In this document: in pieces, positions 13,154-59,415 of the stretch | Numbering within the stretch: the first letter of the stretch is position 1 | Layout of the letters: each line of letters begins with the position of its first letter | IMG/VR virus record: IMGVR_UViG_3300014204_000002 | Span: 64,001 to 128,000 of that record | From: a virus | Lineage: Duplodnaviria > Caudoviricetes | Direction: 5' to 3' (one strand) | Length of the DNA: 64,000 nucleotides | The notes under the pieces: model-generated | Database searches by the model: none | What the model saw: only the letters and a program-made list of their open reading frames with translations | Told to the model about the DNA's origin: nothing | Made by a program: the position numbers and the translations under genes

Positions 13154-13225
13154 TTTATATGTGGAAAAACACAACTAAATGATGCACAAGTAATAAGGCG
13201 AGAGATTTTCTCTTTCGTTTTGTTA
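13154..13225 (+). ncRNA. Dispersed promoter-hairpin element, copy 1 (putative small RNA)
   Basis: TTTATATG-N7-ACACAACTAAATGATGC then hairpin TAATAAGGCGA/TCGTTTTGTTA with G-U pairs. Confidence 0.6.
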
Positions 13226-13269
13226 TGCAGCAAAACTTTTGTAATCGTTAACCGGGGCAAAATAGAGGT

Positions 13270-13458
13270 TTAGTAATATCGCGATCTGGCTATCACAAGA
13301 TTGTCAATTAGATTGATTATAGACCCGATTTGTTGAACTGTTGCGTTATATGTTCCTGTGCCAATAACTGACGAGTTTAATTCTTTGAGTAAGATATCTA
13401 AATGATTTTGCAATGATTCAATTTCAGAATAAAATTGTGAACCTACTTTGTCTTCCAT
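13270..13458 (-). CDS. Hypothetical protein (62 aa)
   Basis: ORF track; ATG start; helical composition. Confidence 0.5.
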   Translation of the reverse strand: MEDKVGSQFYSEIESLQNHLDILLKELNSSVIGTGTYNATVQQIGSIINLIDNLVIARSRYY

Positions 13459-13489
13459 GTATAGTAGTTAACTTCAGAGGATAAAAATG

Positions 13490-13745
13490 TTAGTGTGAGC
13501 GTTGGCCGCTTAACATCGGTGAGTAGATTTCGTTCCAAAAGTGCATAGACATGTCGAGATCGAACATAATGGTGTCTATCCAGTTTGGATCGTCAAAGAT
13601 TTCGTGGAGCGCCTTATGAGTGATAAAACAATGAATGCCGAGGACTTTACGCCATCTCGCATCATCGTCAAGATCGCCATCGGGGTCGATTTTACACGGG
13701 CCTTTGTAGTCGATAATTGGCGCGTTTTCAGGCAACAAGCCGAAA
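13490..13745 (-). CDS. Tail assembly chaperone C-terminal (GT) frame, probably reached by +1 frameshift
   Basis: Overlaps end of 13728..14105 in the +1 frame; only a TTG start with no RBS; TTT CGG at 13745-13740; lies between tail tube and tape measure. Confidence 0.65.
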
Positions 13746-14105
13746 CAAGTCCTTGCGCACGTTCATTGTATTGAACGAGGCTAAGAATAACACCCATTGA
13801 TCTTCTCCGGGCACGTCTTCGTACTTGTGGGATACGAGAATTTCTGGCAGCACTTCATCGAGCCACTGGACAAATACTTCCTGCATTCGCTCCTGATCGG
13901 CTGGCGAGGCATCTCCGGTTACGTCATCAACGGACTTTGGCATGGCCTTCGTTAAAAGCCTAAAATGCAATGCACCGAGTTTGCCCGTGGGCTTGGACAA
14001 TTCGTAGATTTGATTTGCCGTCTCAATTCTGATGCTCCTAGCCTTTGGATCGGGCTTAAAAACTGGCTCGTCTTCTGTTACAGGTAGTGCTTTCTTGGCA
14101 ACCAT
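13728..14105 (-). CDS. Tail assembly chaperone (G-like)
   Basis: Canonical position between tail tube and tape measure; own TATA promoter. Confidence 0.7.
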   Translation of the reverse strand: MVAKKALPVTEDEPVFKPDPKARSIRIETANQIYELSKPTGKLGALHFRLLTKAMPKSVDDVTGDASPADQERMQEVFVQWLDEVLPEILVSHKYEDVPGEDQWVLFLASFNTMNVRKDLFRLVA

Positions 14106-14155
14106 ATGTTAATATATAGTTATTAACCTGTATATAAAGATAAAAATAGGGTGGT

Positions 14156-15034
14156 TTATGCGAAGACTATCATAGTAGCCGTTGTATTGGTTGTAGAGTT
14201 GACTTCTGCTCGCCAGTTTATGGTTTTGTCGAAGCGGGCGCGGCCTTGTGCAGATGCGGATCCTGATTCTATTTTGACATTCGTGATCGTTATCGTGGCG
14301 ATGAGAACTGCAGGATCAGAACATGTTGCACCGGGAGTATTCAATGTCAGGGTAATGGTTCCAATATCACCGCAATCTCCTGCTGCTTTTTGGAGTCCGA
14401 GCCATTCTGATGAGGCCAGCGTCAATGTGCCACTTAAACTGCCGTTTCCACTTTGTAGGATATCGTATAGTTGTTTAGTGCCGATCACGTAATAGTCCTG
14501 ATCGATCGGAATCTGGCCGTTGATAGTAATTGCTGAAAACTTTATGCCTGCGTCCGGACAACTGATTTGGGACACTGATGCGATTGGAATTGGATCGGCG
14601 TAACTCGTCGGGCTTGTTACACCTGTTATTGCGGCAACAGTTCCAACTTTGCAGGAGACGAAGTTGTATTTGACCTTCGCGTAGTCTTTTACAGTTAGGG
14701 ATAATTCGAACGAGTTTATGGCAGTGCTTGCAAAAGAGAGGCCGTTTGTCTCATCTCCGATAACGATGGTATTGTATGGTAAGGCTGCGAGAGTTCCGCA
14801 CATAACGTCCATGACATCGGTGATTGCGTATTTTACAACGTCTATATTACGGAGGGCGCCGTCAAACGAGCCGGTATTTATAACGCCGCCATCATAGATT
14901 TTTGCTTCGCCTGCAGAACCAAAAGATTGTTCAGTGATTAAACTACGTGTGGGATTGATAGACGCGCCAGTAACCGGGACATACGCTACTGTGCCACCCG
15001 ATCGAGATATTGATACACCACGAAATGTCGCCAT
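14156..15034 (-). CDS. Tail tube protein paralogue 2
   Basis: Alignable to 15072..16217 (SFDGALR/SFEAAFR; DQDYYVIG/DQDYFFIG; QGRARFDKTINWRA/QGRNQFEKTVTWKA); GGAG RBS. Confidence 0.7.
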   Translation of the reverse strand: MATFRGVSISRSGGTVAYVPVTGASINPTRSLITEQSFGSAGEAKIYDGGVINTGSFDGALRNIDVVKYAITDVMDVMCGTLAALPYNTIVIGDETNGLSFASTAINSFELSLTVKDYAKVKYNFVSCKVGTVAAITGVTSPTSYADPIPIASVSQISCPDAGIKFSAITINGQIPIDQDYYVIGTKQLYDILQSGNGSLSGTLTLASSEWLGLQKAAGDCGDIGTITLTLNTPGATCSDPAVLIATITITNVKIESGSASAQGRARFDKTINWRAEVNSTTNTTATMIVFA

Positions 15035-15071
15035 AGTTTAGTCTCCTATACTCTCCTCAAAAAGGAGAAGT

Positions 15072-16217
15072 TTAGTTGTTATAGACCTCGATAGTAAATT
15101 TATCGGTGTCGTTAATCTGTGCCTTCCATGTGACGGTCTTTTCGAACTGATTACGGCCCTGAACTGAACGGCTCATTTCAGTTAACTTTGCAACATCACA
15201 GGTAATCTTACCAGATTCTTTGGTGCCATCTGGCGCGTGGAGAATGACTTCGAATTTACCTGCGGGCACCGCATTCGTGAGCACGGTTCCGGTTGCTGCG
15301 TCTCCGAAGAACTCCTGATTGGTTTCATCGAGCACATTGCCGTTTGTTGCTCCCGTAGTCTTACCAACGAGCATGGTTCTGATACGCTGCCAGTCACCTG
15401 CCCCGAGAGTAATCTGACCACCGAGATCGGTAAGCCCATTGTAGTAAAGCCCCTGTAAGAATTCTGAACCAATGAAGAAGTAATCCTGATCCATGGTTCG
15501 TGCAAGCGTCATCGTGAACGCCTTACATTTCAGCGTCTCGGCAGATCCGCCTTCTGGAGTCCACTTTAATACTGCATTGTAGAAAATTGCCGGTTCTCCA
15601 TTGATCGTGTTGTTTGCAGAATTGTAACCAACGTCAAATACCTCGGCACGCCGTGCAATCCACTGGAAAGTAGATTTTGCGTATTCCTTGACGTTCAGAT
15701 TGATTTCAAAGTTCGTGATACCGACACCACGATAGATCGTAGTAGAACCGTGAACATCATTAGATCCGGTCGTATCAGTTGCCTGTTCATCAATTACTTT
15801 CAGTGCAAGAGGCATTGCTTCCATTGCCAGAATGTACTTGAGCCCGGCACCGTGTGCAGTGTTAGATGCTACAACCTCTGGCGTCTGATTTCCTAATGCT
15901 CCAAGTAAAAGACCTGAAGTTGCGAAATCCCATCCTCTGAATGCTGCTTCGAACGAGCCGCTTGACGAGTAAGTACCCGCGTATACGGTCGCTGCAGCCA
16001 CCTGATCAATAGACTCTTCAATAACGGAATTACGATTTGCGGCATCACTGAAGGAATTAACACGGATTGTCTTAAATGCATTCGTATGAGTCGCCCCACT
16101 TGAATATGTAATCCAATCGCTAGATGTGTTATATCCCGGAGCAATGACGTAGTCGTCTATTTCATCGGCATCATACGCCGATATGTCCGTGGTGATCGCT
16201 AATTCTCTTGTCGTCAA
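15072..16217 (-). CDS. Major tail tube protein
   Basis: Position after tail terminator; beta-rich; AGGTGA RBS before TTG start; paralogue downstream. Confidence 0.7.
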   Translation of the reverse strand: MTTRELAITTDISAYDADEIDDYVIAPGYNTSSDWITYSSGATHTNAFKTIRVNSFSDAANRNSVIEESIDQVAAATVYAGTYSSSGSFEAAFRGWDFATSGLLLGALGNQTPEVVASNTAHGAGLKYILAMEAMPLALKVIDEQATDTTGSNDVHGSTTIYRGVGITNFEINLNVKEYAKSTFQWIARRAEVFDVGYNSANNTINGEPAIFYNAVLKWTPEGGSAETLKCKAFTMTLARTMDQDYFFIGSEFLQGLYYNGLTDLGGQITLGAGDWQRIRTMLVGKTTGATNGNVLDETNQEFFGDAATGTVLTNAVPAGKFEVILHAPDGTKESGKITCDVAKLTEMSRSVQGRNQFEKTVTWKAQINDTDKFTIEVYNN

Positions 16218-16312
16218 TTCGTTTCACCTTTATATATTTTGTTTATTTTAATAATCGTAGATCTTGCAGATTCACTCGATCATGTATTTCCAGTTACCTT
16301 TATATAAGATAA

Positions 16313-16732
16313 TTATGGCTGTGCGTTGTCAGGATCTGATATGTCCATCCAGTCGTTTTCGAATTTATAACAACAGGACATTTCTACTTGCGTTGTAGTG
16401 CCGAGTGGCGGTGCGTGGACTGGGCCAAACATGAACGAGGTGCAATTTGGGGCTTCTGACTCCTCGACGTACTTCGTTACAAATGACAGGATGTTGCTAA
16501 TTTTGTACGGGACTTCGTTATTGTCGTTTACGTTGAATATAATTTTGAGCCAGACAAGATCCCAATATGATTCCTGTGTTTCTACGCTGTTGTCAAAACT
16601 GTTGTAGACGACGCTACATTCGTTTTCATTGAGTTCGTTTGTGTAATTACTGTTCGTTGTATAGTTGAGTTTGCGCATGGCTTCCTCAACATAATACTTT
16701 ACGTCCTTGCGACGTGCTTTATATACTGCCAT
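16313..16732 (-). CDS. Tail terminator / tail completion protein
   Basis: 139 aa, synteny between neck and tail tube. Confidence 0.5.
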   Translation of the reverse strand: MAVYKARRKDVKYYVEEAMRKLNYTTNSNYTNELNENECSVVYNSFDNSVETQESYWDLVWLKIIFNVNDNNEVPYKISNILSFVTKYVEESEAPNCTSFMFGPVHAPPLGTTTQVEMSCCYKFENDWMDISDPDNAQP

Positions 16733-17772: not shown

Positions 17773-18179
17773 GACTCAATGAGGGTCGGGCTCATGATGC
17801 CGTCAACCGGCGTTCCAAGGGCATTGATGTTCAGTGACAGATCATTGTTCAATGGCACTTGTGTGATATACGATAAACAATTATATGCCTGCATCAACAG
17901 CGTCTGAAGCAACATCGGGGCACTTTCCGGCAGTGTTCCAAGGCGTCTTTCTGAAAGCGTCGTGTAATTTTTGTAACTAATATAGGCACCAAGTCGAATG
18001 GTGCAACGTCGCACATATCGCATTTCGAGGTCGTCTGCCGCAATCATACACACGAAGTCCAATGCATCTTCTAAATCGTTGACGATTAATTCGTCGTCTA
18101 TAATATCGAATCCCGGATCGCCTATCGACTGCCTCACTGGTTTTGTCAGGCTATCTAAATTTAAATCGTAATCTGCCAT
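17769..18179 (-). CDS. Head-tail adaptor protein
   Basis: VRQSIGD...IIDDELI pattern of adaptor proteins; ATG at 18179, 30 nt after TTTATATA. Confidence 0.6.
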   Translation of the reverse strand: MADYDLNLDSLTKPVRQSIGDPGFDIIDDELIVNDLEDALDFVCMIAADDLEMRYVRRCTIRLGAYISYKNYTTLSERRLGTLPESAPMLLQTLLMQAYNCLSYITQVPLNNDLSLNINALGTPVDGIMSPTLIES

Positions 18180-18217
18180 GTAAAGCAATGGTGATTTACA
18201 GTATATAAAAAAGAGAG

Positions 18218-19399
18218 TTATGTATATTTGTGGATGATTTGCTTTGCTACAAAGTGTTTTCTATTCATATAAATCGTTGCATCAGTATAAAGCCACTTTA
18301 AAACTTTACCTGTGTTAAATCCTCCCTGAACCAATAATACATATGTGTTTTTATCGTTGTTTTTATCTTGTTTATGAATATGTACGGATGTATCAGGAAC
18401 ATGCTTTTCAATTATTTTTTTAATTCCTGTCATTGCTTCAAATGTGCCAACTATAGAAGCATTATGTTTATAATTTTGTGGTGAGTTTTCATTTCGTTTA
18501 TCTTTACGCTTGTAAATTGATACATGCCCATCACCATCAAACCAACCTCGTATACAATGTCTCTGAATATATTCAGGAGCATCAATTATTACTTGTGGAA
18601 ATTGCAATATAAGCGATTTTGCCGGAACCATTCCATATGAAACAAGTGTATCTTTCATGTGCTGACTGTACATGACTAAATTATATTGCGGTTTTGCATT
18701 TTCATAACCACTACTATCTTTTAAATATAACGGTCTATCATTTGAAACAAATGAATTTAATTGCTCCACAAGATAGCCATCATCTTCTTTTAGTGCGAGT
18801 GAAATTGATGGCTGATCTTTTGCTACATTTCCATCAGCATAAAGCATCCCGAGAAAATATGCCTTTTCTTCAGTGTCAATATTATCAAAGAAATCTTCAG
18901 TTATCTGATATTGATTTTCTTTAGTTGGGCGTGTAACTTCTCCATTTCTACGTAAGATACTAAGGATCGTTGTATCATCAACTTCATATAAATGACTAAG
19001 TTCTCGCATTGTAGCACCGTTTCTATACAATTTACATACTCTCGCTTCTAATCTATCTCCCAGTTTACGCTTTCCTCCAACTGGATCTATTTTAACATCA
19101 TTTTTATGCAGTGTTCTATTAATTAATCCATAATCAAGTCCGAGTATGGCTGCAGTTTTTTCCATAGATCGTGTTTCTTCATATGTCTTGATTACAAGAT
19201 CTACATCAATTGGTTTACATCCAGTATTGTTATTATACCACTCTCTACGTTTAATGCCAGAATTAACTACAATTGTTCGTGCAGTAGTCGATCCAATACC
19301 AAACATTTCACCAAGTTCTCTATATGATAAACCAGATATGTAATGCTCAACTAGTTGACTTTTCTGTTCATTGGTTAGTAATATACTTCCCATGATCAT
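18218..19399 (-). CDS. Free-standing LAGLIDADG homing endonuclease with N-terminal HTH repeats
   Basis: AYFLGMLYADG and CIRGWFDGDG motifs; three HTH-like repeats; AT-richer than flanks; inserted just after the capsid gene. Confidence 0.85.
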   Translation of the reverse strand: MIMGSILLTNEQKSQLVEHYISGLSYRELGEMFGIGSTTARTIVVNSGIKRREWYNNNTGCKPIDVDLVIKTYEETRSMEKTAAILGLDYGLINRTLHKNDVKIDPVGGKRKLGDRLEARVCKLYRNGATMRELSHLYEVDDTTILSILRRNGEVTRPTKENQYQITEDFFDNIDTEEKAYFLGMLYADGNVAKDQPSISLALKEDDGYLVEQLNSFVSNDRPLYLKDSSGYENAKPQYNLVMYSQHMKDTLVSYGMVPAKSLILQFPQVIIDAPEYIQRHCIRGWFDGDGHVSIYKRKDKRNENSPQNYKHNASIVGTFEAMTGIKKIIEKHVPDTSVHIHKQDKNNDKNTYVLLVQGGFNTGKVLKWLYTDATIYMNRKHFVAKQIIHKYT

Positions 19400-19529
19400 A
19401 TATTGGCTATTAAACTATTTGTAATTTGTGGCATATAGAAAAATAGAATCAAAAACTATGTAAAACAGACAATTTTTAAAAATGAGAAAATTAGAGATAT
19501 TTTGTGGTATAATCAATTTTGTTAATTGA

Positions 19530-20462: not shown

Positions 20463-20473
20463 TTTAATTCACC

Positions 20474-22316: not shown

Positions 22317-23558
22317 GCCAAAGAATGCTCGTGACTTCAATCATGATAAGAATTTATAATATATGGAAAAGTATTAAATATTAAGCAGATCAATAATGTA
22401 CAGTGTCGCTTAAAGCCTATAAGTTTAGAATATATCCTACCAAGGCGCAAGAGACTGTGTTAGAACAGACTCTTGAAACTTGTCGTAGAGTATATAATAA
22501 AACTTTGGCTTTAAAAAGAGAAGTTTATGAAGCCACGAAGACCCACATCTCCCTGTTTGAAACCAATAAACAACTGACCCAATGGAAGAAGGAAGAACCA
22601 ATTTATCTAAAGAAAGTTCATTCTCAAGTACTGCAGAATGTACAAGTAAGAGTGGATCTATCATTTCAAGGATTTTTTCGAAGAGTTAAAATTGATTCCG
22701 CTAATGCCGGATACCCTATATTTAAGGCAAAAGGCAGGTATGATTCTATCACCTATCCTCAGCCCGGTTCAGCATTTAGATTGAGATCTGGTTGTATTGA
22801 ATTATCAAAGATCGGATCAGTTAAAATTAAACAACACCGAGCAATTGAAGGCAGCCCCAAAACTTGCATAGTTTTAAAAACATGTACTGGTAAGTGGTTT
22901 GTTTCAATCTGTTGCGAAGTTGAGAAGAAATCTAAACCAAAACGAGAGTTTAAAGCAATTGGAATTGATTTAGGTGTGAGAACACTTTGTGCCTTATCAA
23001 ATGGGGAAGAAGTCCTACCTCCAAGATTCTTAATGCAAGATGAAAAGATCCTTGCAAAAGCACAACGTAAGTTAAGTGCTGCTGAAAAAGGATCTAAAAT
23101 GAGAAAGAAGTGCAAGAAAGTAGTTGCGCATATTCATGAACGAATATCCAATAAACGTAAAGATTTCTGTGAGAAGTTAAGTCTATCTTTGGTTCAGACC
23201 TACTCTTTTATTGCATTTGAGGATCTGAAGATAAATGAAATGGTGCAAAGATCGGATTGCTATATCGAGAAACATATTCTAGATGCTGCATGGAACCAAT
23301 TAACAACCAGAACAATACGCAAAGCGGAAGATGCTGGTGCAAAAGTTGTGTTTGTTAATCCGTGTAATACTACTAAAATGTGTTCACAATGTGGAACGTT
23401 AGTACCAAAAGATAGAAGTGAAAAGGTACATAATTGTCCCGCGTGTGGTCTTTCCATAGGAAGAGATCATAATGCAGCAATCAATATACTCAGACTGGGG
23501 TTGCAGTCTGTGGGTTCAATCCCTATATGCCCGTCACTTTAGTGGTGAGAACAATCAC
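22317..23558 (+). mobile_element. IS200/IS605-family non-autonomous element (tnpB only)
   Basis: Left subterminal imperfect hairpin (GCTCGTGACTTCAATCATGA); right end with hairpin remnant ending TCAC at 23555-23558; antisense to the virion operon; ends approximate. Confidence 0.7.
22403..23542 (+). CDS. tnpB: RNA-guided endonuclease TnpB
   Basis: KAYKFRIYP N-terminus; RuvC motifs GIDLG, AFEDL, RDHNAAINI; zinc finger CSQCG...CPACG. Confidence 0.95.
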   Translation: MSLKAYKFRIYPTKAQETVLEQTLETCRRVYNKTLALKREVYEATKTHISLFETNKQLTQWKKEEPIYLKKVHSQVLQNVQVRVDLSFQGFFRRVKIDSANAGYPIFKAKGRYDSITYPQPGSAFRLRSGCIELSKIGSVKIKQHRAIEGSPKTCIVLKTCTGKWFVSICCEVEKKSKPKREFKAIGIDLGVRTLCALSNGEEVLPPRFLMQDEKILAKAQRKLSAAEKGSKMRKKCKKVVAHIHERISNKRKDFCEKLSLSLVQTYSFIAFEDLKINEMVQRSDCYIEKHILDAAWNQLTTRTIRKAEDAGAKVVFVNPCNTTKMCSQCGTLVPKDRSEKVHNCPACGLSIGRDHNAAINILRLGLQSVGSIPICPSL

Positions 23559-25481: not shown

Positions 25482-27998
25482 TTAAGCATAAAAATCCACA
25501 TAGTCATCATCTGCATTACAATAAACATCAAGGCCGGAATATGAATCAAATGTTGCAGCACATCCAATTGTTGTCATGCCTGAATAATCAACTGAATCAT
25601 CTGATTCAAGATACCAGATACAATTTGCCACGGTATCGGCACTATCCTTCGAATTATGCACGTAAATTCCGGCCATTAATGCAAAATTGCTCCATTTATC
25701 GACTTCCAGATCATAAACTGGCACCGGATTATCTAAAGTTATCTCCTTTTTGGATACAACGATTATATCAAGTCCTGATACGGGCATCAACTTATCTGAT
25801 CTTGCAAGATCTTTCACTTGTTTGTAATCGCCGTGTTTTAACATGAATGGATGATCTGGCGTGCAGGTAATAATGTTGCCGTTAGATAAGGTGACTTCGA
25901 GCAATTCTGTTACGTATTTTGTCAGGCGTGCCTTTGCTCTTCCGGATCTCAATTTTCCCTCGTCATTGCACGAGCACACCCAGACATGATCCATGTTGGT
26001 TAATGACTCGATTGGAACATATTGTCCGTCGAGCAATTTGACCTTTGTATCGCCAGTAAAGCAGCCATTCCACGGATGATCTACTTTCGCCTTTCCACCA
26101 GTCATAATTTTAATAAACAGGGCATTACATTCAGTTTCTAAATTGTCGTCGTATACTACGTTTAATTTGGTGTTGGATAGCCCTTCCTGTAATTCGCGCC
26201 ACCGATCGTAGTCTTCTTTTGCAACAATGTGTTTTACGATTTCGAGGCCAAGATCGCGCTCTACCGCTTCTAGAATTTCAGGATACATATGTACATCATA
26301 TAGGAAGGCGTATACATTAAGGTTCATACACGCATGTATAATAAAATTCTTGATATCTGATGGAAGCACGGTAGCATCTGTGTCTCCCATTTTTTCAAAT
26401 CGCTTAACTCCATCTATTATAACAGTGCCAACTTCTGTTGCTGGATTAATATGTTTATAACCAACTGATATACCAAAAGAATCGTTTTTATATGCAGGAT
26501 CAATTGACATTACACGAGGAATTGCCTTTATTTCCTTTTGCAACGTCTCGTAATTTGCGTCAAGCACGTTTAAAATCGTCTTATCGAGTTTAATGCCTTC
26601 TGGGAACTGCAATCCTGACGACATCTGCGGCTCATTTGCAAAATCACGGTAAAATCGCGCTCTGTCACCCTCACAAGTCTCTAATAAGTATTCTTGTGTA
26701 ACAGTCGGGTTAAATTCCCACGTTTTATACATGTAGGCTCTAGCAAGTCGATTACCTTCTTGCTTTTTGAACTGATTATGAAGAGCCATTTGGCGCCCAT
26801 TCTGTGATTTCAACGATGATAACACAATAATTTTACCGTCGCGCTTAAATGTTTCAGTTGAATTTGCCAATTTAGTAAAAACGGCCTCAGAATCTATCTG
26901 AGTATCGGAATCCGGGAAATAATCGTATTCATCAGCAATAAAACACTTATTTGTGTAACCTGCAAGAGTAGTAGCCTTGGCAGCCATAACCTGAGCCAAT
27001 ACATTTTTGCGAGGTTCTTCAATCTGATATGTATCAAAAACCAAATCAGGAAAATTAAGTTCAAACCATGGATTTCCTTCAATTAACGCTCGCATTGAGG
27101 CAAATACACCGTCTTTTGCCTGTTTCATTGAAGGGCATAAACAAGTAAGCGCAATAGTTGAACCTTTCCCGGATTTACCTGTCATTAACCCAAAATGTTT
27201 TGCCGGACTCGCCCATGAAATAACCTCAACAAGTTCATAAGCCATAATAGTCGCCGTAAGCGTCGTTTTTGACGAATTATGCACTAATATTCCGTTTGCG
27301 ATATAACAGTTTCCAGACGGAACATACAAATCATACATCTCACAAGTAAATTCTTCTTTATCCCATCCTCTGACTGTCGATTCATAAAATTCACCATTGT
27401 AACTATTATAGCAAGTAATTGAATCTCCAGAGTTAATCTCTGATAAAGGCACCCAAATATCATTTATTTTAAACTTGTGATCTTTTGAACAATATATTGT
27501 TACTCCATCTTCAAGTAGCATTTTACACTGACTTTTAAATCCCGTATAAAATACCATACCAACATTGACCCACCCAATAGGATTTTTAACATGAATCATC
27601 TCTCCTAAGTGAAATCTATTATATAAGTCTTCTATTGTAATTGTTCCATATTCCCAAGTTAGAATGCCTGTATCACCACGAAGGCATCTCTGGCCTAAAG
27701 TGAGACTTAATTTCTTGATTGGGAGCAATGATGGATCATATTTATGGCCGTAAAACTCCTGTATGATTTCTTTTTGTTTGGGCCACATTGAGCGAGGGGA
27801 GCCATCTTCTGCGGGGCCTGGAAATCCTAAAATGTCCTCGATGAAATAAATGGGATCAGATCTGATTCGCTCCATTTCGAACATGAAGTCGAGATAATCT
27901 ACACCATCAAGTGTTTCGCCATCAGATATTTGGTATTCACCTTCCGGGATGGCAAGACGACTATTCTTCTTCGGTCTTCCGGGAGGCATTATTACCAC
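25482..27998 (-). CDS. terL: Terminase large subunit with two mini-inteins
   Basis: After intein removal: WPKQ Q-motif, Walker A GQR|SSKT, Walker B FIADE, nuclease SIDPA...DSFG and G|SKDSAD. Confidence 0.9.
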   Translation of the reverse strand: MVIMPPGRPKKNSRLAIPEGEYQISDGETLDGVDYLDFMFEMERIRSDPIYFIEDILGFPGPAEDGSPRSMWPKQKEIIQEFYGHKYDPSLLPIKKLSLTLGQRCLRGDTGILTWEYGTITIEDLYNRFHLGEMIHVKNPIGWVNVGMVFYTGFKSQCKMLLEDGVTIYCSKDHKFKINDIWVPLSEINSGDSITCYNSYNGEFYESTVRGWDKEEFTCEMYDLYVPSGNCYIANGILVHNSSKTTLTATIMAYELVEVISWASPAKHFGLMTGKSGKGSTIALTCLCPSMKQAKDGVFASMRALIEGNPWFELNFPDLVFDTYQIEEPRKNVLAQVMAAKATTLAGYTNKCFIADEYDYFPDSDTQIDSEAVFTKLANSTETFKRDGKIIVLSSLKSQNGRQMALHNQFKKQEGNRLARAYMYKTWEFNPTVTQEYLLETCEGDRARFYRDFANEPQMSSGLQFPEGIKLDKTILNVLDANYETLQKEIKAIPRVMSIDPAYKNDSFGISVGYKHINPATEVGTVIIDGVKRFEKMGDTDATVLPSDIKNFIIHACMNLNVYAFLYDVHMYPEILEAVERDLGLEIVKHIVAKEDYDRWRELQEGLSNTKLNVVYDDNLETECNALFIKIMTGGKAKVDHPWNGCFTGDTKVKLLDGQYVPIESLTNMDHVWVCSCNDEGKLRSGRAKARLTKYVTELLEVTLSNGNIITCTPDHPFMLKHGDYKQVKDLARSDKLMPVSGLDIIVVSKKEITLDNPVPVYDLEVDKWSNFALMAGIYVHNSKDSADTVANCIWYLESDDSVDYSGMTTIGCAATFDSYSGLDVYCNADDDYVDFYA
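25653..26063 (-). mobile_element. Mini-intein 2 (137 aa) in terminase nuclease domain
   Basis: Starts CFTGDT; block B CTPDHPF; ends VYDLEV...IYVHN followed by Ser; no endonuclease. Confidence 0.9.
27276..27686 (-). mobile_element. Mini-intein 1 (137 aa) in terminase Walker A
   Basis: Starts CLRGDT; block B CSKDHKF; ends MYDLYV...ILVHN followed by Ser; no endonuclease. Confidence 0.9.
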
Positions 27999-29708: not shown

Positions 29709-29797
29709 TTTATATAGGAGTAAACACAACTAAATGATGTCAACAACGGAAGTAACAGAAGGAAGACATAGGCAATCTTCTTTCTTTTCTTTTGTTA
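29709..29797 (+). ncRNA. Dispersed promoter-hairpin element, copy 2
   Basis: TTTATATA-N7-ACACAACTAAATGATGT...TAACAGAAGGAAG/CTTTTCTTTTGTTA. Confidence 0.6.
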
Positions 29798-29908
29798 GGC
29801 AAACTTTTGACGCACTCTTCTGGCCCGATTTCCAGTATATAAACATAGTTAAATGAGGCATGACGCGGCTAAGCGAGGCTTTTTAACTCTGGACGACGAC
29901 TCTTTTGT

Positions 29909-30115: not shown

Positions 30116-30311
30116 CGATTCATTATCATAATTCATTTATTGTAAAGGGGCAATGGTCACAAGATCAAATTGTAAGTGGCGGCACTTCTCACAAGGATGC
30201 ACGGGGTGTATTTGATGGTAATTATATGCGAGAGTATAACACCACTGATAGATTTACATTTGTGCATGAGTACAATGCCGGGAGTGGCGAGTGTTCGGTC
30301 TGGTGGTTAAT

Positions 30312-30734
30312 GTGATTGAGATTTATACGGACGGAGGATGTAGATTAACGCGACCTGATAAACTTGGCGCGTGGAGTTACATTATTATTGGAGACGGATT
30401 TGTTGTTGATAAGCATTCTGGTATAGAATTCGACACAACCGTCAACAGAATGGAGTACACTGGACTTATTATGGCATTACGCGCGTTAAAATGGATTAAT
30501 ATAACCGGGCATGAAATTAAAATCACGTCAGATTCGCAGTTGCTTATAAATCAGGTCACTGGTAAGTGGAATGTCAATGACCCGGTGTTGCAAAACTTAA
30601 GATTCTTGGTGCTTGAGGCGGGTAGCATTTCATTGAAAGATAACCAGGTAGCGTTTATATGGAATCCGCGCGAAAGTAAATGGACGAGTGAATGTGATAA
30701 AATGTGTAACGAAGCAATGGATCAGGTGAGATAA
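30312..30734 (+). CDS. rnhA: Ribonuclease HI
   Basis: IYTDGG, TVNRMEY, ITSDSQL, W.PR...CDKMCN: catalytic D/E/D/D pattern; GTG start overlapping the upstream TGA. Confidence 0.9.
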   Translation: MIEIYTDGGCRLTRPDKLGAWSYIIIGDGFVVDKHSGIEFDTTVNRMEYTGLIMALRALKWINITGHEIKITSDSQLLINQVTGKWNVNDPVLQNLRFLVLEAGSISLKDNQVAFIWNPRESKWTSECDKMCNEAMDQVR

Positions 30735-34677: not shown

Positions 34678-34872
34678 TTAGTTAACTGCCGCTGTACAGA
34701 TGAGGCAGGTAGTCATCTCTTTGCCGTTTAATTCAAATTTGGACTGCGAGACGTGGTGGACTTCCTCAAATGCGTCACCATCATCGAGATCGATATACAT
34801 CATTTCGACTTCGTGATCGCCATCTTCGTCCATGTACTGCTGTAATACGGTGATTAATTCGCTACATTTCAT
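34678..34872 (-). CDS. Small acidic hypothetical protein
   Basis: MKCSELITVLQQYM...GDHEV common phage N-terminal pattern; starts just downstream of element copy 3. Confidence 0.6.
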   Translation of the reverse strand: MKCSELITVLQQYMDEDGDHEVEMMYIDLDDGDAFEEVHHVSQSKFELNGKEMTTCLICTAAVN

Positions 34873-34900: not shown

Positions 34901-34975
34901 TCTATAACAAAAGAAGAAAAGAAGACTCTTCTCTTGTTGGGGTGCATCATTTAGTTGCGTTGATAAATATTTATA
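34901..34975 (-). ncRNA. Dispersed promoter-hairpin element, copy 3
   Basis: TATAAATA-N7-ACGCAACTAAATGATGC...AACAAGAGAAG/CTTCTTTTGTTATAGA on the minus strand. Confidence 0.6.
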
Positions 34976-37853: not shown

Positions 37854-38045
37854 GTGGGCGATGAGTTAAAGCCGAGTCCGAGTCCGTTTCCAGGTGCAAT
37901 TCCAAAAGTATCCCAGGCGAGAGATGGCAGTTGGTGGATAGATGCCGTTTGGAATTCTGATGATTGGGCGAGCCAAATAAACATTTCAGTCGGAGGAACA
38001 CAAACTCGTGCTGAAGCAATTGAATTATGGAATAAGAGAGCGTGA
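37854..38045 (+). CDS. Lar (restriction-alleviation)-like protein lacking the usual cysteines
   Basis: ELKPSPSPFPG...TRAEAIELWNKRA matches the ELKPCPFCG...EAIxxWNxR outline. Confidence 0.5.
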   Translation: MGDELKPSPSPFPGAIPKVSQARDGSWWIDAVWNSDDWASQINISVGGTQTRAEAIELWNKRA

Positions 38046-38180
38046 TAAATCTATGAGTTCGTCCAGATGTTTAGATGGTTACTTTAACTTTTTTACGTCC
38101 AGACATACTCGATAACATAATTAATTCGGATCCTCAACGGCTAATATATTTAGACCTATTACAAGGCTCTAATTTTATTC

Positions 38181-52528: not shown

Positions 52529-52534
52529 TAAATC

Positions 52535-52864: not shown

Positions 52865-52867
52865 ATT

Positions 52868-53979: not shown

Positions 53980-54110
53980 CCGAAGTAACACATGATCGAC
54001 TTGTACCAAGATTGTATCTCATTAGAGGTCTTCCCGGTGTAACTAAGTTGCTTGGATCAGGAATAAATATTAATAAAACAATGTATATATGTGATAGGAA
54101 AAGATTCTAA
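53976..54110 (+). pseudogene. Truncated N-terminal remnant of a P-loop kinase
   Basis: MTEVTHDRLVPRLYLIRGLPG then diverges at the P-loop; near-duplicate of the N-terminus at 55137. Confidence 0.7.
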
Positions 54111-55140
54111 TTTATTAATGTTTAATGGATCAATTAAACAGATTTGCGATATTAAAACAGGTGATGTATTAATGGGAATAAATAACAATCCTGCAATAGT
54201 TAGATATAATATATTAACAAGTGCGGAAATGTATAAAATTAGTCCCGTTAAAGGAGATCCATTCAATTTGTCAATATCACATTGTTTATACGGGAAAAGA
54301 AAAGTTAGCATAATTGAAAGAGACATATTTTTAAATCTAAAGACATATTTAGAGTCAGATAGAATGGCATTTAAAGAGCGATTAAAACTATGTAGATCTA
54401 CTGCTGTAGAATTTAACACCAATGATACTTTATTAATTGAGCCATATTTTCTTGGAATATGGCTTGGTGATGGGGATTCTAGTTCTCAAAAAATTACAAA
54501 CCCAGACAATGAAATTATTGAATACCTAACATATTATGCGAGTTCTATGCATATGAAAATTGCAAATTACACACCATTAAAAACAGCATCTGCATTATGC
54601 ATTAGCAATGGCAAAATAGGAACTCCATTTAATAACAGTCTGTTAAATAATATGCGATATTATAATCTTATTAATAATAAGCACATACCAGATTGTTATT
54701 TACTATCATCAATTGAAAATAGATTAATGTTATTGGCAGGATTATTAGATTCTGACGGCCATCTACATGCCAACGGAGGATATGAAATCACATTTAAATC
54801 GAAGCATTTAATGAATCAAACAAGGTTTTTAATAAAATCTCTTGGGATAGCAGCCTACACATCTGATAAAATTGCAACCTGTCAAACAGCAAATGGAAAG
54901 TTCAAGGGATTGTATTATAGAACATCTATATCAGGAAACCTTGATGTTATTCCATGTAAAGTCAAGCGAAAACAAGCACAAGAAAGAAACCAAGTCAAAA
55001 ACGTTTTAAGAACGGGATTTTCAGTAGATAAAATTGGATATGATAATTGCTATAATATTATGGTTGATAATAACTTTATCATACTTGATAATTTCACGAT
55101 AATATGCGACTCTTCAATAATAGGAGACTGTATTATATGA
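54091..55140 (+). CDS. Intein-derived LAGLIDADG endonuclease, apparently free-standing and splicing-defective
   Basis: Hint N-terminal IGKDSNLLMFNGSIKQICDIKTGDVLMG; PYFLGIWLGDG and LLAGLLDSDG; C-terminal DNFTIICD-S instead of ...THN-S. Confidence 0.8.
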   Translation: MIGKDSNLLMFNGSIKQICDIKTGDVLMGINNNPAIVRYNILTSAEMYKISPVKGDPFNLSISHCLYGKRKVSIIERDIFLNLKTYLESDRMAFKERLKLCRSTAVEFNTNDTLLIEPYFLGIWLGDGDSSSQKITNPDNEIIEYLTYYASSMHMKIANYTPLKTASALCISNGKIGTPFNNSLLNNMRYYNLINNKHIPDCYLLSSIENRLMLLAGLLDSDGHLHANGGYEITFKSKHLMNQTRFLIKSLGIAAYTSDKIATCQTANGKFKGLYYRTSISGNLDVIPCKVKRKQAQERNQVKNVLRTGFSVDKIGYDNCYNIMVDNNFIILDNFTIICDSSIIGDCII

Positions 55141-55949
55141 CAGTAAGAAATTCACCAAGATTATATTTAATCAGGGGTTTAGTAGGATCTGGAAAAACAA
55201 CGTATGCAAACACATTAGGTTGTATTACAATTGCGCCATCTGATATGATGAGTTATAGAGGAGGTCAGTATAATTGGATAAAAACTAATTATATGATATC
55301 AAAAATCCATTTTAGAAAAATAGTAAGAGATCTCATGGCTCTGCAAATTGATATTTGTATAACCGAACTCTTATTAGAAAAAAGATTTATCGATTTTTGG
55401 CTAAAAGAAGCAAAAGACAATTATTATGAAGTGCGCATTGGTACCCTATTGACCGATCTTAACACAAGCAAATCTCGAAACATTCATAATGTAAATAAAA
55501 CGTCTATTGCAGAAATTCACGAGCAAATGGACTATGGTATTCCAGATCAAATAATTGATTATAGCGAAGGAGAGTGGGATAAATCAAGCACAAACAAATT
55601 TAGGTCTCCTAATTTTGTTCCTAATGAGGAGAATCATTATGGGCTATCATCAAATGATATAATTGGTAACGAGATTAAAAAATTGATATCTGATAACCAA
55701 CTGGAAAAAGCAATTCAACTGCATATCGATATGAGTAATTATTTAGGAGCAAATGTGACAACCGACAAATCTGTTGCGCAAATCGTAGTAATCAACGACG
55801 AAACGTACATAAATAAAAGTTCATTGCTTCGGATCATGGCACACTTTAAGACTGCCATCAAAGAAGCAAATGAAACGGCACCAGAAAAACGCAAGATTAT
55901 CGTCTACACTCTTGAATCAGTAGAAGACATAATCAAGAAAGTTAATTAG
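55137..55949 (+). CDS. P-loop kinase (AAA_33 / polynucleotide-kinase-like)
   Basis: LYLIRGLVGSGKTT Walker A; SRNIHNV lid motif; AGGAG RBS; ATGA coupling. Confidence 0.75.
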   Translation: MTVRNSPRLYLIRGLVGSGKTTYANTLGCITIAPSDMMSYRGGQYNWIKTNYMISKIHFRKIVRDLMALQIDICITELLLEKRFIDFWLKEAKDNYYEVRIGTLLTDLNTSKSRNIHNVNKTSIAEIHEQMDYGIPDQIIDYSEGEWDKSSTNKFRSPNFVPNEENHYGLSSNDIIGNEIKKLISDNQLEKAIQLHIDMSNYLGANVTTDKSVAQIVVINDETYINKSSLLRIMAHFKTAIKEANETAPEKRKIIVYTLESVEDIIKKVN

Positions 55950-55966
55950 AGGAGACAGCAAACACC

Positions 55967-56266
55967 ATGACATACATTGTCGTTATTGGAGATCCAGCAT
56001 CAGGCAAGACTCATTTAGTGCAACAATTAATGAGCCAGTCTGACAAACTTTACGAAGACATTCAATCAGCACAAGACATACAAAAAATAATTAGGTATCA
56101 TGAAGGTAACAATGAACTCATTAGATGGCTCATTATAGACACCACAAAACCAGATTACAAAAATGGCCTCATAGACATAGAGATTGGAAACTTGCCCGGC
56201 AAAGTAGCAATTTTGAACATTATCAAACCTTGCATGAGGAATCAATGTTACCAAAGAACGTATTAG
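55967..56266 (+). CDS. Small P-loop protein
   Basis: IVVIGDPASGKT and WLIID. Confidence 0.6.
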   Translation: MTYIVVIGDPASGKTHLVQQLMSQSDKLYEDIQSAQDIQKIIRYHEGNNELIRWLIIDTTKPDYKNGLIDIEIGNLPGKVAILNIIKPCMRNQCYQRTY

Positions 56267-57633
56267 AAAAAATGCATCGATTAGAAGCGGCAGGTCATGA
56301 GTGTTACATTGTAGGAGGTGCTGCACTTTATAATTTCGCATATCTGAACATGGGCCTCACAAACTACAAACAGGAACCAAAAGATTATGATTTATTCACT
56401 AATTGCCCATCAAATGAACTATTAGAGATATTTCCAGAAGCAAAACCAATGGGAGGTCAGGATCGACTAAACAAAATCTTCACTGTCATTACACCCGATC
56501 AAGTAGAGATTAGCATCTATCGAGGCAATGGCGAAAGAACCGAAACAGGCAAGACAATCTTTGATCACCAATCCACATGTGATTTTAGCATGAATGCGAT
56601 TGCTATGAGTTCCAAAGGTGAATTCATCCTCCCACCTGATGTAATTAATCACCTAAAACAACAAAGACTCGTAGCAATGGGCAATCCCGAAGATCGCATA
56701 GCCGAAGATCCTAACAGAATTTTAAGGGCCTTTAGAATTGCAACAAAGTACGACCTGACCATTGAAAATAGTTTATATTGGGTATTACTAACCACATCAA
56801 TTGCCTCAATCCCGAAGGAAGTGATCCACGATGAACTATTAAAGATCCTACCTCTTGGAATAGATCAACTTTATATATCTGGTAAACTATTCGAGATATT
56901 TCCACGGCTAAAAGAAATGGAAAACATTACAGGGCGAGGTATACACCATGAGGAAACTTGTTTGGAACACACTCTTGAAACTTATCGACAGATGCTACAC
57001 CACACCACTGATCCGATATTGCTCTTCACAGCGATTGTACATGATTGGGGAAAAGTCACCGCATACGATCCAGACACCAAAAAGTTTACCGGACACGAAA
57101 ACATTGGAGCCAAAGAAGTAAAAGCCTTAATGCAGGATCTCAAATTCAGCAATCACGACATAAAGCGTGTAGTGTGGCTCGTTAAAAATCACATGAAATG
57201 CCGCAATGACGACGATTGCACGAAACGCTCACGAAGCAAATGGTACAAATTCCTAAATAGAATGGAAGATGCCGGAGTCTCAATCAGCGATCACCTAACC
57301 CTGAAATACTGTGACTCAAGAAGCAGAATGGTAACCGGCTACTGGGTGCATGAACAGAGCCTAACAACGCTTGAAACCTTCACCGATCAGGACATAACCG
57401 CACAATGGTATAACCGGTATATCGGTGAACATTTCCCGCAAAGACTAAAATATATCGATGTATCAGGAACCGATCTTATAATGCTCGGAATACCAAAAGG
57501 ACCACTGATCGGTGAAGTGCTCTCAAAACTTTACATAATGGTTCTTGCAGCCGAACTCCCCAATGAAAAAGAAGCCCTAATAAACCAAGTAGCAAAATGG
57601 CAGGAGGCCAAATCAAACATCTTCTTAAATTAA
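56245..57633 (+). CDS. cca: Class II (bacterial-type) tRNA nucleotidyltransferase / poly(A) polymerase with HD domain
   Basis: YIVGG...KDYDL, DFSMNAIA, EDPNRILRA, H...HDWGK, GHE, NHM; ATG at 56245 after GAGGA. Confidence 0.85.
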   Translation: MLPKNVLEKMHRLEAAGHECYIVGGAALYNFAYLNMGLTNYKQEPKDYDLFTNCPSNELLEIFPEAKPMGGQDRLNKIFTVITPDQVEISIYRGNGERTETGKTIFDHQSTCDFSMNAIAMSSKGEFILPPDVINHLKQQRLVAMGNPEDRIAEDPNRILRAFRIATKYDLTIENSLYWVLLTTSIASIPKEVIHDELLKILPLGIDQLYISGKLFEIFPRLKEMENITGRGIHHEETCLEHTLETYRQMLHHTTDPILLFTAIVHDWGKVTAYDPDTKKFTGHENIGAKEVKALMQDLKFSNHDIKRVVWLVKNHMKCRNDDDCTKRSRSKWYKFLNRMEDAGVSISDHLTLKYCDSRSRMVTGYWVHEQSLTTLETFTDQDITAQWYNRYIGEHFPQRLKYIDVSGTDLIMLGIPKGPLIGEVLSKLYIMVLAAELPNEKEALINQVAKWQEAKSNIFLN

Positions 57634-57720
57634 TAAATTAATCATTAGACATTAACAAAACCTTTATTTGCTCTTAAAATCAATAAAAGTTAAGTGAGTG
57701 ACACACTGGAGAATCAAAGC

Positions 57721-58068
57721 ATGAAAGTAGGCTCAATACAATGTCAAGGGATCATTACTCTTGACGGAGAACTGATACTTCCACCAAAAGGATCCGTCCT
57801 TGAAGTGGGAGGCATAGAGATTGCAAACATAACCGAGATCGTCATAAACTTCGTTGTTCACACGAAAGAATCAGATACCACATGGATTCAGAAAGGCCAT
57901 CACCGCAACATTGTAATCTCCCACGATGACATGATACGCAAAGCCCGCAGCGCAATACGAAACACAAAGCGCTTCAACTTTTGGGTCAGCAACAACACGC
58001 TAAACATCAAGGATCACCGTCTTGGCCCGTACAAAAATCTGATCGGCCACATCAACGGCAGAGTATAA
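57721..58068 (+). CDS. Hypothetical protein
   Basis: GGAG RBS before ATG 57721. Confidence 0.55.
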   Translation: MKVGSIQCQGIITLDGELILPPKGSVLEVGGIEIANITEIVINFVVHTKESDTTWIQKGHHRNIVISHDDMIRKARSAIRNTKRFNFWVSNNTLNIKDHRLGPYKNLIGHINGRV

Positions 58069-58089
58069 CAACAGAGTATAAACAAAACA

Positions 58090-58183
58090 TTTAAGTATTA
58101 ACACACACAACTAAATGATGCACCTTACTAACAGAAGAACTTTCAACAGAAAGACTAACCACCTTTCTTTCTTTTGTTATAGA
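58090..58183 (+). ncRNA. Dispersed promoter-hairpin element, copy 4
   Basis: TTTAAGTA-N7-ACACAACTAAATGATGC...TAACAGAAGAA/TTCTTTTGTTATAGA. Confidence 0.6.
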
Positions 58184-58404
58184 CGCTAAAATTCGCACCG
58201 TTGAACGCACTTTTCTTGAAACGACAACGCGTCTAAATGAACCGGCCTCCAATTCTGAACGTGCAGCGGGGCGGCATTTGTGTTTGCGCGTCGTGGCCCG
58301 GATGTAAAACGGCACGCATTTATATTAGCGATTCGTCCGGTTTTCGACGTGACTTCAGAAGGTTTAAGTATCTGGACGACAACATTATAATACAGAGGTG
58401 ACAT

Positions 58405-58683
58405 ATGACAAACTATGTCCAGTTGATGAAGCAAGATCGACTGGAATCAGAAATTGCAGAAACGAGGTCGAAGATTCGCGAGTTGGGCGACGCTGCCGAC
58501 GCGATTATTGGCGATCTCGGCAAATTAGTGGGGAATGATGATGCAGACAATGTTCTGTATACAGTGAGTGAAATAGGCAAGGCTCTGGCGCCATTGAGCA
58601 AAATTGCGCTGGAAATGGAAGAATTGGAGAACTCGATCCCTGGATGCGGCATTGAGGCGTATGATGTTGCAGGCGACAGGTAG
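58405..58683 (+). CDS. Coiled-coil hypothetical protein
   Basis: Promoter TTTAAGTA-TCTGGACGA; GAGGTG RBS. Confidence 0.65.
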   Translation: MTNYVQLMKQDRLESEIAETRSKIRELGDAADAIIGDLGKLVGNDDADNVLYTVSEIGKALAPLSKIALEMEELENSIPGCGIEAYDVAGDR

Positions 58684-58717
58684 CGTAATTTGGTAAATTT
58701 TACATGGATGAAACAAC

Positions 58718-59203
58718 ATGGCAAGAAACACCGCACAAACAATCGAAAAATCGCCCGCTGCTACAAGGGCACGACGAACGACCACCCGAAAATTAGAACA
58801 GGCTCCGCGCTCGAATAGAGGACGCAAGGCCGAGGCAATTAAGGAATTCATACCGCCGACTACGACCGCAAAGCGCTACCGAACACGAAAAGATTACGTT
58901 GGCGAGGGCTGGAAGGCTACTGTCGATGAGGCAAAACCATCATTGAGCAAGCGGGTCGCGGCAAAATTCGAGGCTACCGAAACCGCCATTAAGGCAAAGG
59001 AGGCCGTTAAACAGGAGAAGCCGGAATCGCCACAGTTAACGATCACGAATGAACTATCTGGCCCAACTGATCAGACGCTCGCGTATAATATTGCCGAAAT
59101 GTGCAACAAGTACGTCTTTCTGATGAAGGACATCTTTGGCGGGCAGGGCGGTATCGCAGAAATAGACATTCACATAAAGGTAAAGCCCGTGAGCGTATCA
59201 TGA
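58718..59203 (+). CDS. Protein with very basic Ala/Thr/Arg-rich N-terminus (possibly nucleic-acid-binding)
   Basis: ATRARRTTTRK...PRSNRGRK...KRYRTRK. Confidence 0.6.
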   Translation: MARNTAQTIEKSPAATRARRTTTRKLEQAPRSNRGRKAEAIKEFIPPTTTAKRYRTRKDYVGEGWKATVDEAKPSLSKRVAAKFEATETAIKAKEAVKQEKPESPQLTITNELSGPTDQTLAYNIAEMCNKYVFLMKDIFGGQGGIAEIDIHIKVKPVSVS

Positions 59204-59339
59204 GAAAGCCCATAGACATGACACGAGTAATCATCGGTATAAGTTTCATCCTGATTGGGGTTGCGGCAATAGCGTTCCAATGGTGAAGTGAGACAGTAAA
59301 CTGAAAGTGGTCCGTGGCACGATAAAAGACGGCTAGCCC

Positions 59340-59415
59340 TCTATAACAAAAAAGAAAGAAGAACTTTCTCTTCTGTTAGGTTGGCATCATTTAGTTGTGT
59401 CTACAACCTTATAAA
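59340..59415 (-). ncRNA. Dispersed promoter-hairpin element, copy 5
   Basis: TTTATAAG-N7-ACACAACTAAATGATGC...TAACAGAAGAGAAAG/CTTTCTTTTTTGTTATAGA on the minus strand. Confidence 0.6.

What the first reader, a model, noticed from the sequence alone, without database searches (positions are those of the whole stretch)
13154..59415. Five dispersed promoter-plus-hairpin units: a candidate virus-encoded small-RNA family
Seen: five intergenic copies at 13154-13225 (+), 29709-29797 (+), 34901-34975 (-), 58090-58183 (+) and 59340-59415 (-). Each has an 8-nt TATA box, exactly 7 variable nt, then AC(A/G)CAACTAAATGATG(C/T); the first ATG lies 25 nt from the TATA start in all five. A 4-12 nt linker follows, then a hairpin with a purine-rich 5' arm ((T/C)AAYARRRG...) and a pyrimidine-rich 3' arm ending TTTTGTTA, followed by TAGA in three copies. 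Stem sequences differ between copies but pairing is kept, often through G-U wobbles, with a C-G/G-C change in copy 1. Loops and 3' tails vary. The ATGATG frames give unrelated peptides of 4, about 40, 18, 24 and 4 aa, so peptide coding is not what is conserved. Four copies sit back-to-back with a divergent gene. Inference: each unit is transcribed independently as a short structured RNA with a shared scaffold. Possible roles are protein decoy (e.g. anti-defence), antisense or guide RNA, or attenuator; copy 3 could be the 5' leader of 34678..34872. I recognise no known RNA family here.
Basis: partly seen in the sequence, partly recalled or inferred. Interest (0 to 1): 0.88.

Follow-up and report, generated by a model that had tools for sequence, protein, structure and literature searches.

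The report
Candidate RNA-primed viral replication origins
A large virus of methane-making archaea carries ten scattered copies of a promoter followed by a small RNA hairpin, and they sit where the genome's strand composition flips, so they are most likely start points for DNA copying primed by short RNAs, although no transcript or replication start has yet been observed.

Summary
The five units are real, and the complete 143.5-kb genome holds ten. It is a tailed virus, probably of methanogens. Sixteen more copies lie in nine contigs of related viruses, with compensatory stem changes. No Rfam family matches.

Two corrections. The conserved 15-mer lies at about -15 to -1 of an archaeal promoter, so it is DNA promoter, not RNA scaffold; the predicted RNA is a 55-75-nt hairpin. 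The copies also mark upward jumps in synonymous-site strand asymmetry: the four largest jumps in the genome are 19-700 nt from a copy, ordinary promoters show none, and the jumps recur in relatives. The asymmetry follows promoter direction and extends 16-32 kb. The virus encodes PolB, PCNA, an MCM-fold protein, ligase and RNase H, but no detectable primase or Cdc6.

Best reading (0.58): a family of transcription-primed replication origins, working like T4 oriF/oriG or ColE1 but using archaeal promoters. The priming step is inferred; no RNA data were available. First-stage notes on this same genome supplied the skew lead, which I tested; the scan has not reported the element on other DNA.

The parts
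13154..13240 (+). Copy 1: TATA 13154-13161, conserved promoter motif 13169-13183, predicted +1 at 13184, hairpin 13191-13225, T-run 13237-13240. Divergent from the 2755-aa tape-measure-like gene and antisense to the structural operon.
   Evidence: skew jump +0.10, z 1.7
29709..29808 (+). Copy 2 (long form): TATA 29709-29716, predicted +1 at 29739, hairpin to 29797. Points toward RNase H and the skew-reversal region.
   Evidence: jump +0.36, z 6.5, blind-scan peak 76 nt away; orthologous copy in L069
29849..29875 (+). Two extra YTAARYG motifs downstream of copy 2, at the same offsets in L069
30291..30734 (+). RNase H gene about 500 nt downstream of copy 2; also downstream of a copy in L069 (about 1 kb) and L067 (about 2.3 kb)
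   Evidence: PF00075 E 2e-10
34905..34975 (-). Copy 3: TATA 34975-34968, predicted +1 at 34945, hairpin 34939-34905. Inward-facing partner of copy 2.
   Evidence: weak jump +0.07, z 1.1
38040..39640 (.). Gene-free palindrome-array tract at the largest downward skew switch of the genome; inferred physical ends or replication terminus
   Evidence: the function is inference
58090..58190 (+). Copy 4 (long form): TATA 58090-58097, predicted +1 at 58120, hairpin 58129-58179 with a YUAACCA loop kept in three related viruses
   Evidence: jump +0.38, z 5.8
58233..58239 (+). Extra YTAARYG motif downstream of copy 4, also present downstream of the syntenic copies in L055, L056 and L058
59344..59415 (-). 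Copy 5: TATA 59415-59408, predicted +1 at 59385, hairpin 59378-59344. Inward-facing partner of copy 4; divergent from the homing-endonuclease and RuvB genes.
   Evidence: jump +0.43, z 6.2; syntenic copies in L055, L056, L057, L058 and L062

Best explanation
Each unit is a transcription-primed DNA replication origin. Step 1 (inferred from geometry): host TBP/TFB/RNA polymerase, perhaps with a viral factor that reads the conserved -15 to -1 motif, starts a transcript 23 nt after the TATA box. Step 2 (structure shown by covariation, role inferred): the purine-arm/U-arm hairpin folds on the sense strand only, as RNA or as displaced non-template DNA. G-U/G-T wobbles on that strand become A-C mismatches on the template strand, which keeps the template unfolded. 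The U-rich arm makes a very weak RNA-DNA hybrid and may stall or release polymerase. Step 3 (inferred by analogy with T4 oriF and ColE1): the RNA stays hybridised to the template, is trimmed, possibly by the viral RNase H, and is extended by viral PolB with PCNA and the MCM-fold helicase. Step 4 (supported by composition): synthesis runs in the direction of transcription for tens of kb. Six plus and four minus copies, often in inward-facing pairs, supply starts on both strands.
For: Gene-strand-corrected G/C asymmetry at fourfold sites rises across all 10 copies; no circular shift of the set reaches the observed mean, and random gene boundaries reach it at p<=0.0002. A blind scan puts the four largest upward jumps 19-700 nt from a copy; 12 ordinary TATA promoters average -0.02 against +0.20 (p 0.0013). 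A gene-level test gives p 0.003 with 8 of 10 positive. In relatives 13 of 16 copies show jumps with z>2; the L060 pair reaches z 4.1 once its TnpB insert is removed. Natural control: L064 lacks a copy at the tape-measure site and has no jump there (z 0.6), while L060, L067 and L069 have both; L064's own copy lies 0.9 kb from the expected site, and of the five positions tested the jump is largest there (z 8.0). The forward-direction model fits best (dAIC -460, reverse -437, bidirectional -416), with a decay length of 16-32 kb; the true orientations rank 7th of 1024 at 16 kb and 42nd at 8 kb. Mostly plus-strand genes on either side of window 38-39.6 kb have opposite skew. Replisome: PolB, PCNA-like (E 6e-4), MCM fold with TM 0.53-0.57, ligase and RNase H. 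No primase or Cdc6 family match, whereas 98% of polymerase-encoding dsDNA viruses encode a primase (PMC4889955).
Against: No transcript, R-loop or nascent strand was observed. Strong read-through transcription would bias mutations in the same direction. Copies 30434+ and 98960- (window copy 3) and one L067 copy show little or no jump. There is no AT-rich unwinding element downstream (AT 0.58-0.62), unlike T4 oriF/oriG. The first 30 nt of RNA are not unusually hybrid-favourable. AIC and z values treat codons as independent and are inflated; several relatives share one ancestral site, and paired copies share one jump. The L060 result needed a post hoc exclusion. A divergent or host primase cannot be excluded.
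Confidence: 0.58

Rival explanations
1. The copies are origins, but the RNA is not the primer. Transcription or a viral initiator opens the DNA, and the hairpin on the displaced strand or the YTAARYG motif loads the viral helicase or the host primase, as in transcription-activated or ssi/oriL-type origins.
For: Explains the same skew jumps. G-T wobbles also work in single-stranded DNA. YTAARYG recurs in sense orientation downstream of several copies: 13 seen, 4.1 expected, with orthologues counted.
Against: An oriL/ssi-type hairpin on the displaced strand would prime opposite to the promoter, and the reverse model fits worse than the forward one. No primase was found in the virus. The exact promoter spacing is kept in most copies.
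Confidence: 0.17
2. One reading: a multi-copy trans-acting small RNA (protein decoy or anti-defence RNA). The skew would then come from transcription-associated mutation during read-through from very strong promoters.
For: Strand-specific covarying hairpin and T-runs after the stem. The virus carries an anti-defence-type gene set: RNA ligase, CCA-adding enzyme, NAD salvage. Transcription bias has the same sign as the observed skew.
Against: It needs transcripts of 16-32 kb, often antisense through whole operons, despite U-tracts right after the start. Other TATA promoters leave no jump. The conserved motif is upstream of +1. No target was found in the virus. A diffusible RNA does not need syntenic, dispersed, inward-facing loci.
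Confidence: 0.14
3. PeSL-like or HF2-intergenic-repeat-like promoter/terminator cassettes that regulate neighbouring genes, insulate operons or seed recombination; the skew link is incidental.
For: Dispersed conserved promoters are known in haloviruses HF2 and HGTV-1 and in T4-like phages (PMC8707807, PMC3950731, PMC4122927). Several copies follow a co-oriented gene and could terminate it.
Against: About half the copies point into a convergent gene or away from every neighbour; four have no upstream co-oriented gene. Copies lie in conserved core regions and stay syntenic in viruses with only about 40% capsid identity. It does not predict the skew jumps.
Confidence: 0.08
4. Non-autonomous mobile elements (MITE, PATE or REP) spread by an IS200/605-type transposase.
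For: Two TnpB genes are present, and the copies are dispersed hairpins.
Against: No resemblance to the TnpB element ends by inspection. Positions are conserved across distant viruses. The stems diverge with compensation while the promoter motif is fixed.
Confidence: 0.03

Closest known systems
Phage T4 origins oriF (uvsY) and oriG
   Same: About 100-bp unit with a promoter whose transcript is proposed to form an R-loop and prime the leading strand in one direction; several origins per genome; viral RNase H; origins near compositional shifts (PMC3016281).
   Different: T4 origins share no sequence motif, use MotA/sigma70 promoters and an AT-rich unwinding element, and T4 has a primase. Here ten homologous copies have archaeal TATA promoters, a conserved hairpin, no AT-rich downstream element and no detected primase.
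ColE1 RNA II primer and the mitochondrial light-strand promoter primer
   Same: A structured promoter transcript used as a replication primer after RNase H processing (named in PMC3016281; details from my own knowledge).
   Different: Single-copy origins with much longer RNAs and G-rich hybrid anchors; no sequence similarity, and no match to any Rfam family.
PeSL promoter/stem-loop cassettes of T4-like phages
   Same: Dispersed, conserved promoter plus stem-loop units (PMC4122927).
   Different: PeSLs are sigma70 cassettes concentrated in hyperplastic regions next to variable ORFs. These are archaeal, in core regions, often not oriented to any gene, and mark skew switches.
Halovirus HF2 intergenic repeats and the HGTV-1 TATA/inverted-repeat motif
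   Same: Repeated archaeal-virus promoters with strong conservation just upstream of the start site, syntenic among relatives (PMC8707807, PMC3950731). HGTV-1 also lacks a detectable primase (PMC4889955).
   Different: They drive downstream genes. In 34 kb of HGTV-1 the repeats I found are promoters about 30 nt before a start codon, with no match to this element's HMM. The HF2 paper describes no conserved downstream hairpin.

Membership tests
T4 oriF/oriG-type R-loop origin | Promoter within a unit of about 100 bp | tested here: met
   TATA at fixed spacing in most of 26 copies; 23 nt to a pyrimidine-purine start (PMC2699501). Predicted, not mapped.
T4 oriF/oriG-type R-loop origin | AT-rich downstream unwinding element | tested here: not met
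   AT 0.62, 0.62 and 0.58 in successive windows after +1, at about the genome average
T4 oriF/oriG-type R-loop origin | Location at strand-composition switches, with synthesis in the direction of transcription | tested here: met
T4 oriF/oriG-type R-loop origin | Persistent R-loop and RNA-primed nascent DNA; autonomous plasmid replication | not testable with these tools
   No RNA holder listed; needs an infection system
T4 oriF/oriG-type R-loop origin | Virus-encoded RNase H | tested here: met
   window 30291-30734, PF00075 E 2e-10
PeSL cassette | sigma70 -35/-10 promoter with stem-loop | tested here: not met
   Archaeal TATA geometry and archaeal-type ribosome-binding sites
PeSL cassette | Concentrated in hyperplastic regions beside variable ORFs | tested here: not met
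   Copies sit beside PolB, PCNA/RNR, tape-measure and RuvB genes and are syntenic in distant relatives
HF2/HGTV-1 intergenic repeat promoters | Conserved promoter with a motif just upstream of +1 | tested here: met
   PMC8707807
HF2/HGTV-1 intergenic repeat promoters | Directly drives a co-oriented downstream gene; sequence similarity | tested here: not met
   About half the copies face a convergent gene; no HMM match in 34 kb of HGTV-1
Box C/D sRNA | Box C RUGAUGA and box D CUGA forming a kink-turn | tested here: not met
   The box-C-like letters are absent from several copies and lie upstream of +1; no box D by inspection; no Rfam hit
Any Rfam 15 family | Covariance-model match at gathering score | tested here: not met
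   0 hits in the window; best E 5 around copies 4-5
IS200/605-derived MITE/PATE | Ends shared with the cognate IS, and recent insertion polymorphism | tested here: inconclusive
   No similarity to the TnpB flanks by inspection. Presence differs at the tape-measure site in L064, but close-strain empty sites could not be examined.

The most novel reading that the evidence does not exclude
This virus family replicates a genome of about 140 kb without any primase: host archaeal RNA polymerase makes short hairpin primers at about ten homologous sites on both strands, and each strand is made largely continuously from these. That would be RNA-polymerase-primed, multi-origin replication in an archaeal system, for which I found no precedent in the papers searched.
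Probability: 0.22. Interest if true: 0.92.

Novelty: new variant of a known kind. Interest (0 to 1): 0.8.

Why it matters
Replication origins of large tailed archaeal viruses are, to my knowledge, largely unmapped, and I know of no RNA-polymerase-primed initiation shown in archaea. Here a recognisable 90-bp element predicts origin positions and directions in a whole virus family. That makes the priming question testable with purified archaeal RNA polymerase and a cloned copy. It would also offer an explanation for polymerase-encoding viruses with no detectable primase, and a candidate compact replicon for methanogen genetics.

Tried and rejected
Exact 17-mer scan of viral contigs: 43 hits, none with the hairpin, so chance. 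Composite pattern scan: 0 hits. The search for related loci with portal, RuvB and the 161-aa ORF found nothing in viral or metagenome contigs; relatives came only through protein look-ups. The covariance model found no match in 151 Methanomicrobiales-order and 151 Methanosarcinales-order genomes searched, with no positive control and only 28 candidates scored each; one marginal hit (E 0.04) in a Methanosarcina genome was not convincing. A DNA search of about 600 methanogen genomes for CRISPR spacers found no spacer-like match: one set of hits was A-rich low-complexity sequence, the other 73-86% matches in a coding stretch that I did not examine. The host is therefore inferred, not shown. No RNA holder listed; contigs laid gave no strain variants of use. 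YTAARYG as a general late promoter: rejected, it is not upstream of structural genes. Conserved micropeptide: rejected (several copies lack the double ATG). Box C/D, H/ACA, CRISPR-repeat mimic and tRNA: no supporting features. Hybrid-stability signature of the first 30 nt: not distinct from background. No match to the element or the capsid protein among cultured phages.
Full report
Observation. The five units exist exactly as described. The window is positions 64001-128000 of a complete 143,525-bp virus record. A profile built from the copies finds ten in the genome and nothing else below E 0.08: six on the plus strand and four on the minus strand, at 15019+, 22155-, 30434+, 46846-, 57309+, 77169+, 93724+, 98960-, 122105+ and 123400-. 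Eight of them form four inward-facing pairs.

The virus. Terminase, portal and tail genes make it a tailed virus. PolB is closest to halovirus polymerases among cultured viruses. The nearest named TnpB relatives are mostly from Methanofollis, Methanoculleus and Methanosarcina. The holders are landfill and groundwater metagenomes. Ribosome-binding sites and promoters are archaeal in type. A methanogen host is an inference; no spacer match was found.

Relatives. Contigs carrying relatives of RuvB, TnpB and the capsid protein hold 16 further copies in nine contigs. They sit at the same sites: around the RuvB neighbourhood, beside the tape-measure gene, and beside the ORF upstream of the terminase. 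This holds even in viruses with about 40% capsid identity. In the most distant lineage (L060, L067) the upstream motif has changed in concert in all copies, which suggests co-evolution with a binding factor or gene conversion (inference).

Anatomy. [quoted passage not shown] Many apparently leaderless genes of this virus have TATA boxes 26-34 nt before the start codon. So the conserved 15-mer covers about -15 to -1 and is promoter DNA, as with the conserved motif of HF2 intergenic repeats (PMC8707807). The predicted RNA starts with a purine, has an A/C-rich leader, a 12-18-bp hairpin with a purine 5' arm and a U-rich 3' arm, a short G-rich stretch and usually a T-run, 55-75 nt in all. Pairing is conserved with compensation. 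The stems have 52 G-U pairs against 10 A-C, and the sense strand folds more stably in 21 of 26 copies, so the structure is strand-specific. No Rfam family matches.

The cis signal. First-stage notes on this genome suggested that the copies lie at skew switches; I tested this. Using synonymous third positions, corrected for codon family and gene strand, plus-strand G-over-C asymmetry rises across all ten copies. No circular shift of the set reached the observed mean, and random gene boundaries did so at p<=0.0002. A scan blind to the copies puts the four largest upward jumps 700, 76, 91 and 19 nt from a copy; twelve ordinary TATA promoters average -0.02 against +0.20 (p 0.0013). A conservative gene-level test gives p 0.003 with 8 of 10 positive. 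The largest downward switch is at the gene-free palindrome tract at window 38-39.6 kb, with mostly plus-strand genes of opposite skew on its two sides. That pattern fits forks running toward genome ends or a terminus, and is hard to get from the genes' own transcription.

Replication in relatives. Thirteen of 16 copies show jumps with z above 2, including five contigs where the flanking genes are on one strand. The L060 pair reaches z 4.1 after its TnpB insertion is excluded, a post hoc step. L064 has no copy at the tape-measure site and no jump there (z 0.6). Its one copy is separated from the usual neighbour gene by two extra genes, and of the five positions tested the jump is largest at the copy (z 8.0). 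These sites are not all independent: five contigs share the RuvB site.

Direction and range. A model in which each copy makes its sense strand G/T-rich downstream fits better than reverse or bidirectional models, with a decay length of 16-32 kb. The true set of orientations ranks 7th of 1024 at 16 kb and 42nd at 8 kb. G/T richness is the usual leading-strand or displaced-strand signature (established knowledge), so synthesis would start in the direction of transcription. The AIC gaps are inflated by non-independent codons; the rank test is the safer figure.

Machinery. The genome encodes PolB just upstream of one copy, a PCNA-like protein and ribonucleotide reductase flanking another, ligase, an ERCC4 nuclease, RuvB and a 466-aa protein whose predicted structure matches MCM helicases. 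RNase H lies 500 nt downstream of window copy 2 and also downstream of a copy in L067 and L069. Six-frame searches for four primase families and Cdc6 were empty with working controls. A primase is found in 98% of polymerase-encoding dsDNA viruses, and non-canonical priming was suggested for the exceptions (PMC4889955). A divergent or host primase remains possible.

Mechanism and limits. Shown: the family, its conserved strand-specific hairpin, its promoter-like geometry and its coincidence with directional, long-range strand asymmetry. Inferred: transcription, hybrid formation, RNase H processing and extension by PolB. Against a simple T4 copy: there is no AT-rich unwinding element, and the first 30 nt are not especially hybrid-favourable, although the U-rich arm is strongly hybrid-unfavourable (+7.3 kcal/mol over 19 steps). 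I put about 0.75 on the copies being origins of some kind and 0.58 on the RNA being the primer.

Comparison. It works like T4 oriF/oriG (PMC3016281) and the ColE1 and mitochondrial primers, but is not a member of those families. It resembles PeSLs (PMC4122927) and halovirus intergenic repeats (PMC3950731; PMC8707807) in being a dispersed promoter, but those drive neighbouring genes; the HGTV-1 repeats I examined are leaderless promoters with no match to this element. I found no description of a homologous multi-copy origin family in an archaeal virus in the papers searched. Verdict: real feature, new variant of a known kind, interest 0.8.

Noticed in passing
window 38040-39640: Gene-free tract of several periodic palindrome arrays at the largest skew reversal of the genome; likely the physical termini or packaging region. 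The 123-nt terminal repeat of the assembly may be only a circular overlap.
   Followed up: partly
L052:2771-4171 (genome 42771-44171): 466-aa protein with no Pfam, PHROG or PDB sequence hit whose predicted structure matches MCM helicases (TM 0.53-0.57) and clusters of uncharacterised viral proteins.
   Followed up: partly
window 60468-61403: Viral RuvB belonging to a distinct group (46-82% identity) found on related virus contigs, about 40% to cellular RuvB.
   Followed up: partly
window 56125-57633; L050:17219-18109; L054:1495-4555; L050:20-820: CCA-adding/HD enzyme, RNA ligase, NAD salvage pair (NMNAT-like, NAMPT), an ADP-ribosylglycohydrolase-family protein and four tRNA-like genes: a counter-defence-type gene set. 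One relative carries RtcB beside RNase H.
   Followed up: no
window 22403-23542 and L050:18317-19504: Two stand-alone TnpB elements with no adjacent transposase gene; an 85% identical TnpB sits at a different site in the structural module of L060.
   Followed up: partly
window 58129-58179 and L055, L056, L058: The long copy next to the CCA-adding enzyme keeps a 7-nt YUAACCA loop in four viruses; unexplained.
   Followed up: partly
window 43128-43143 and 43238-43253: A 16-nt inverted repeat containing YTAARYG lies just upstream of the ribosome-binding sites of two divergent genes; possible operator.
   Followed up: no
L050:8079-9308: 409-aa protein upstream of the AAA ATPase, exonuclease and PolB genes with weak OB-fold resemblance (scores under 0.9); possible single-strand binding protein.
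   Followed up: partly
window 18218-19399, 54091-55140, 59504-60493, 25482-27998: Free-standing LAGLIDADG-like homing endonucleases and an intein in the terminase; PolB also has an intein.
   Followed up: no
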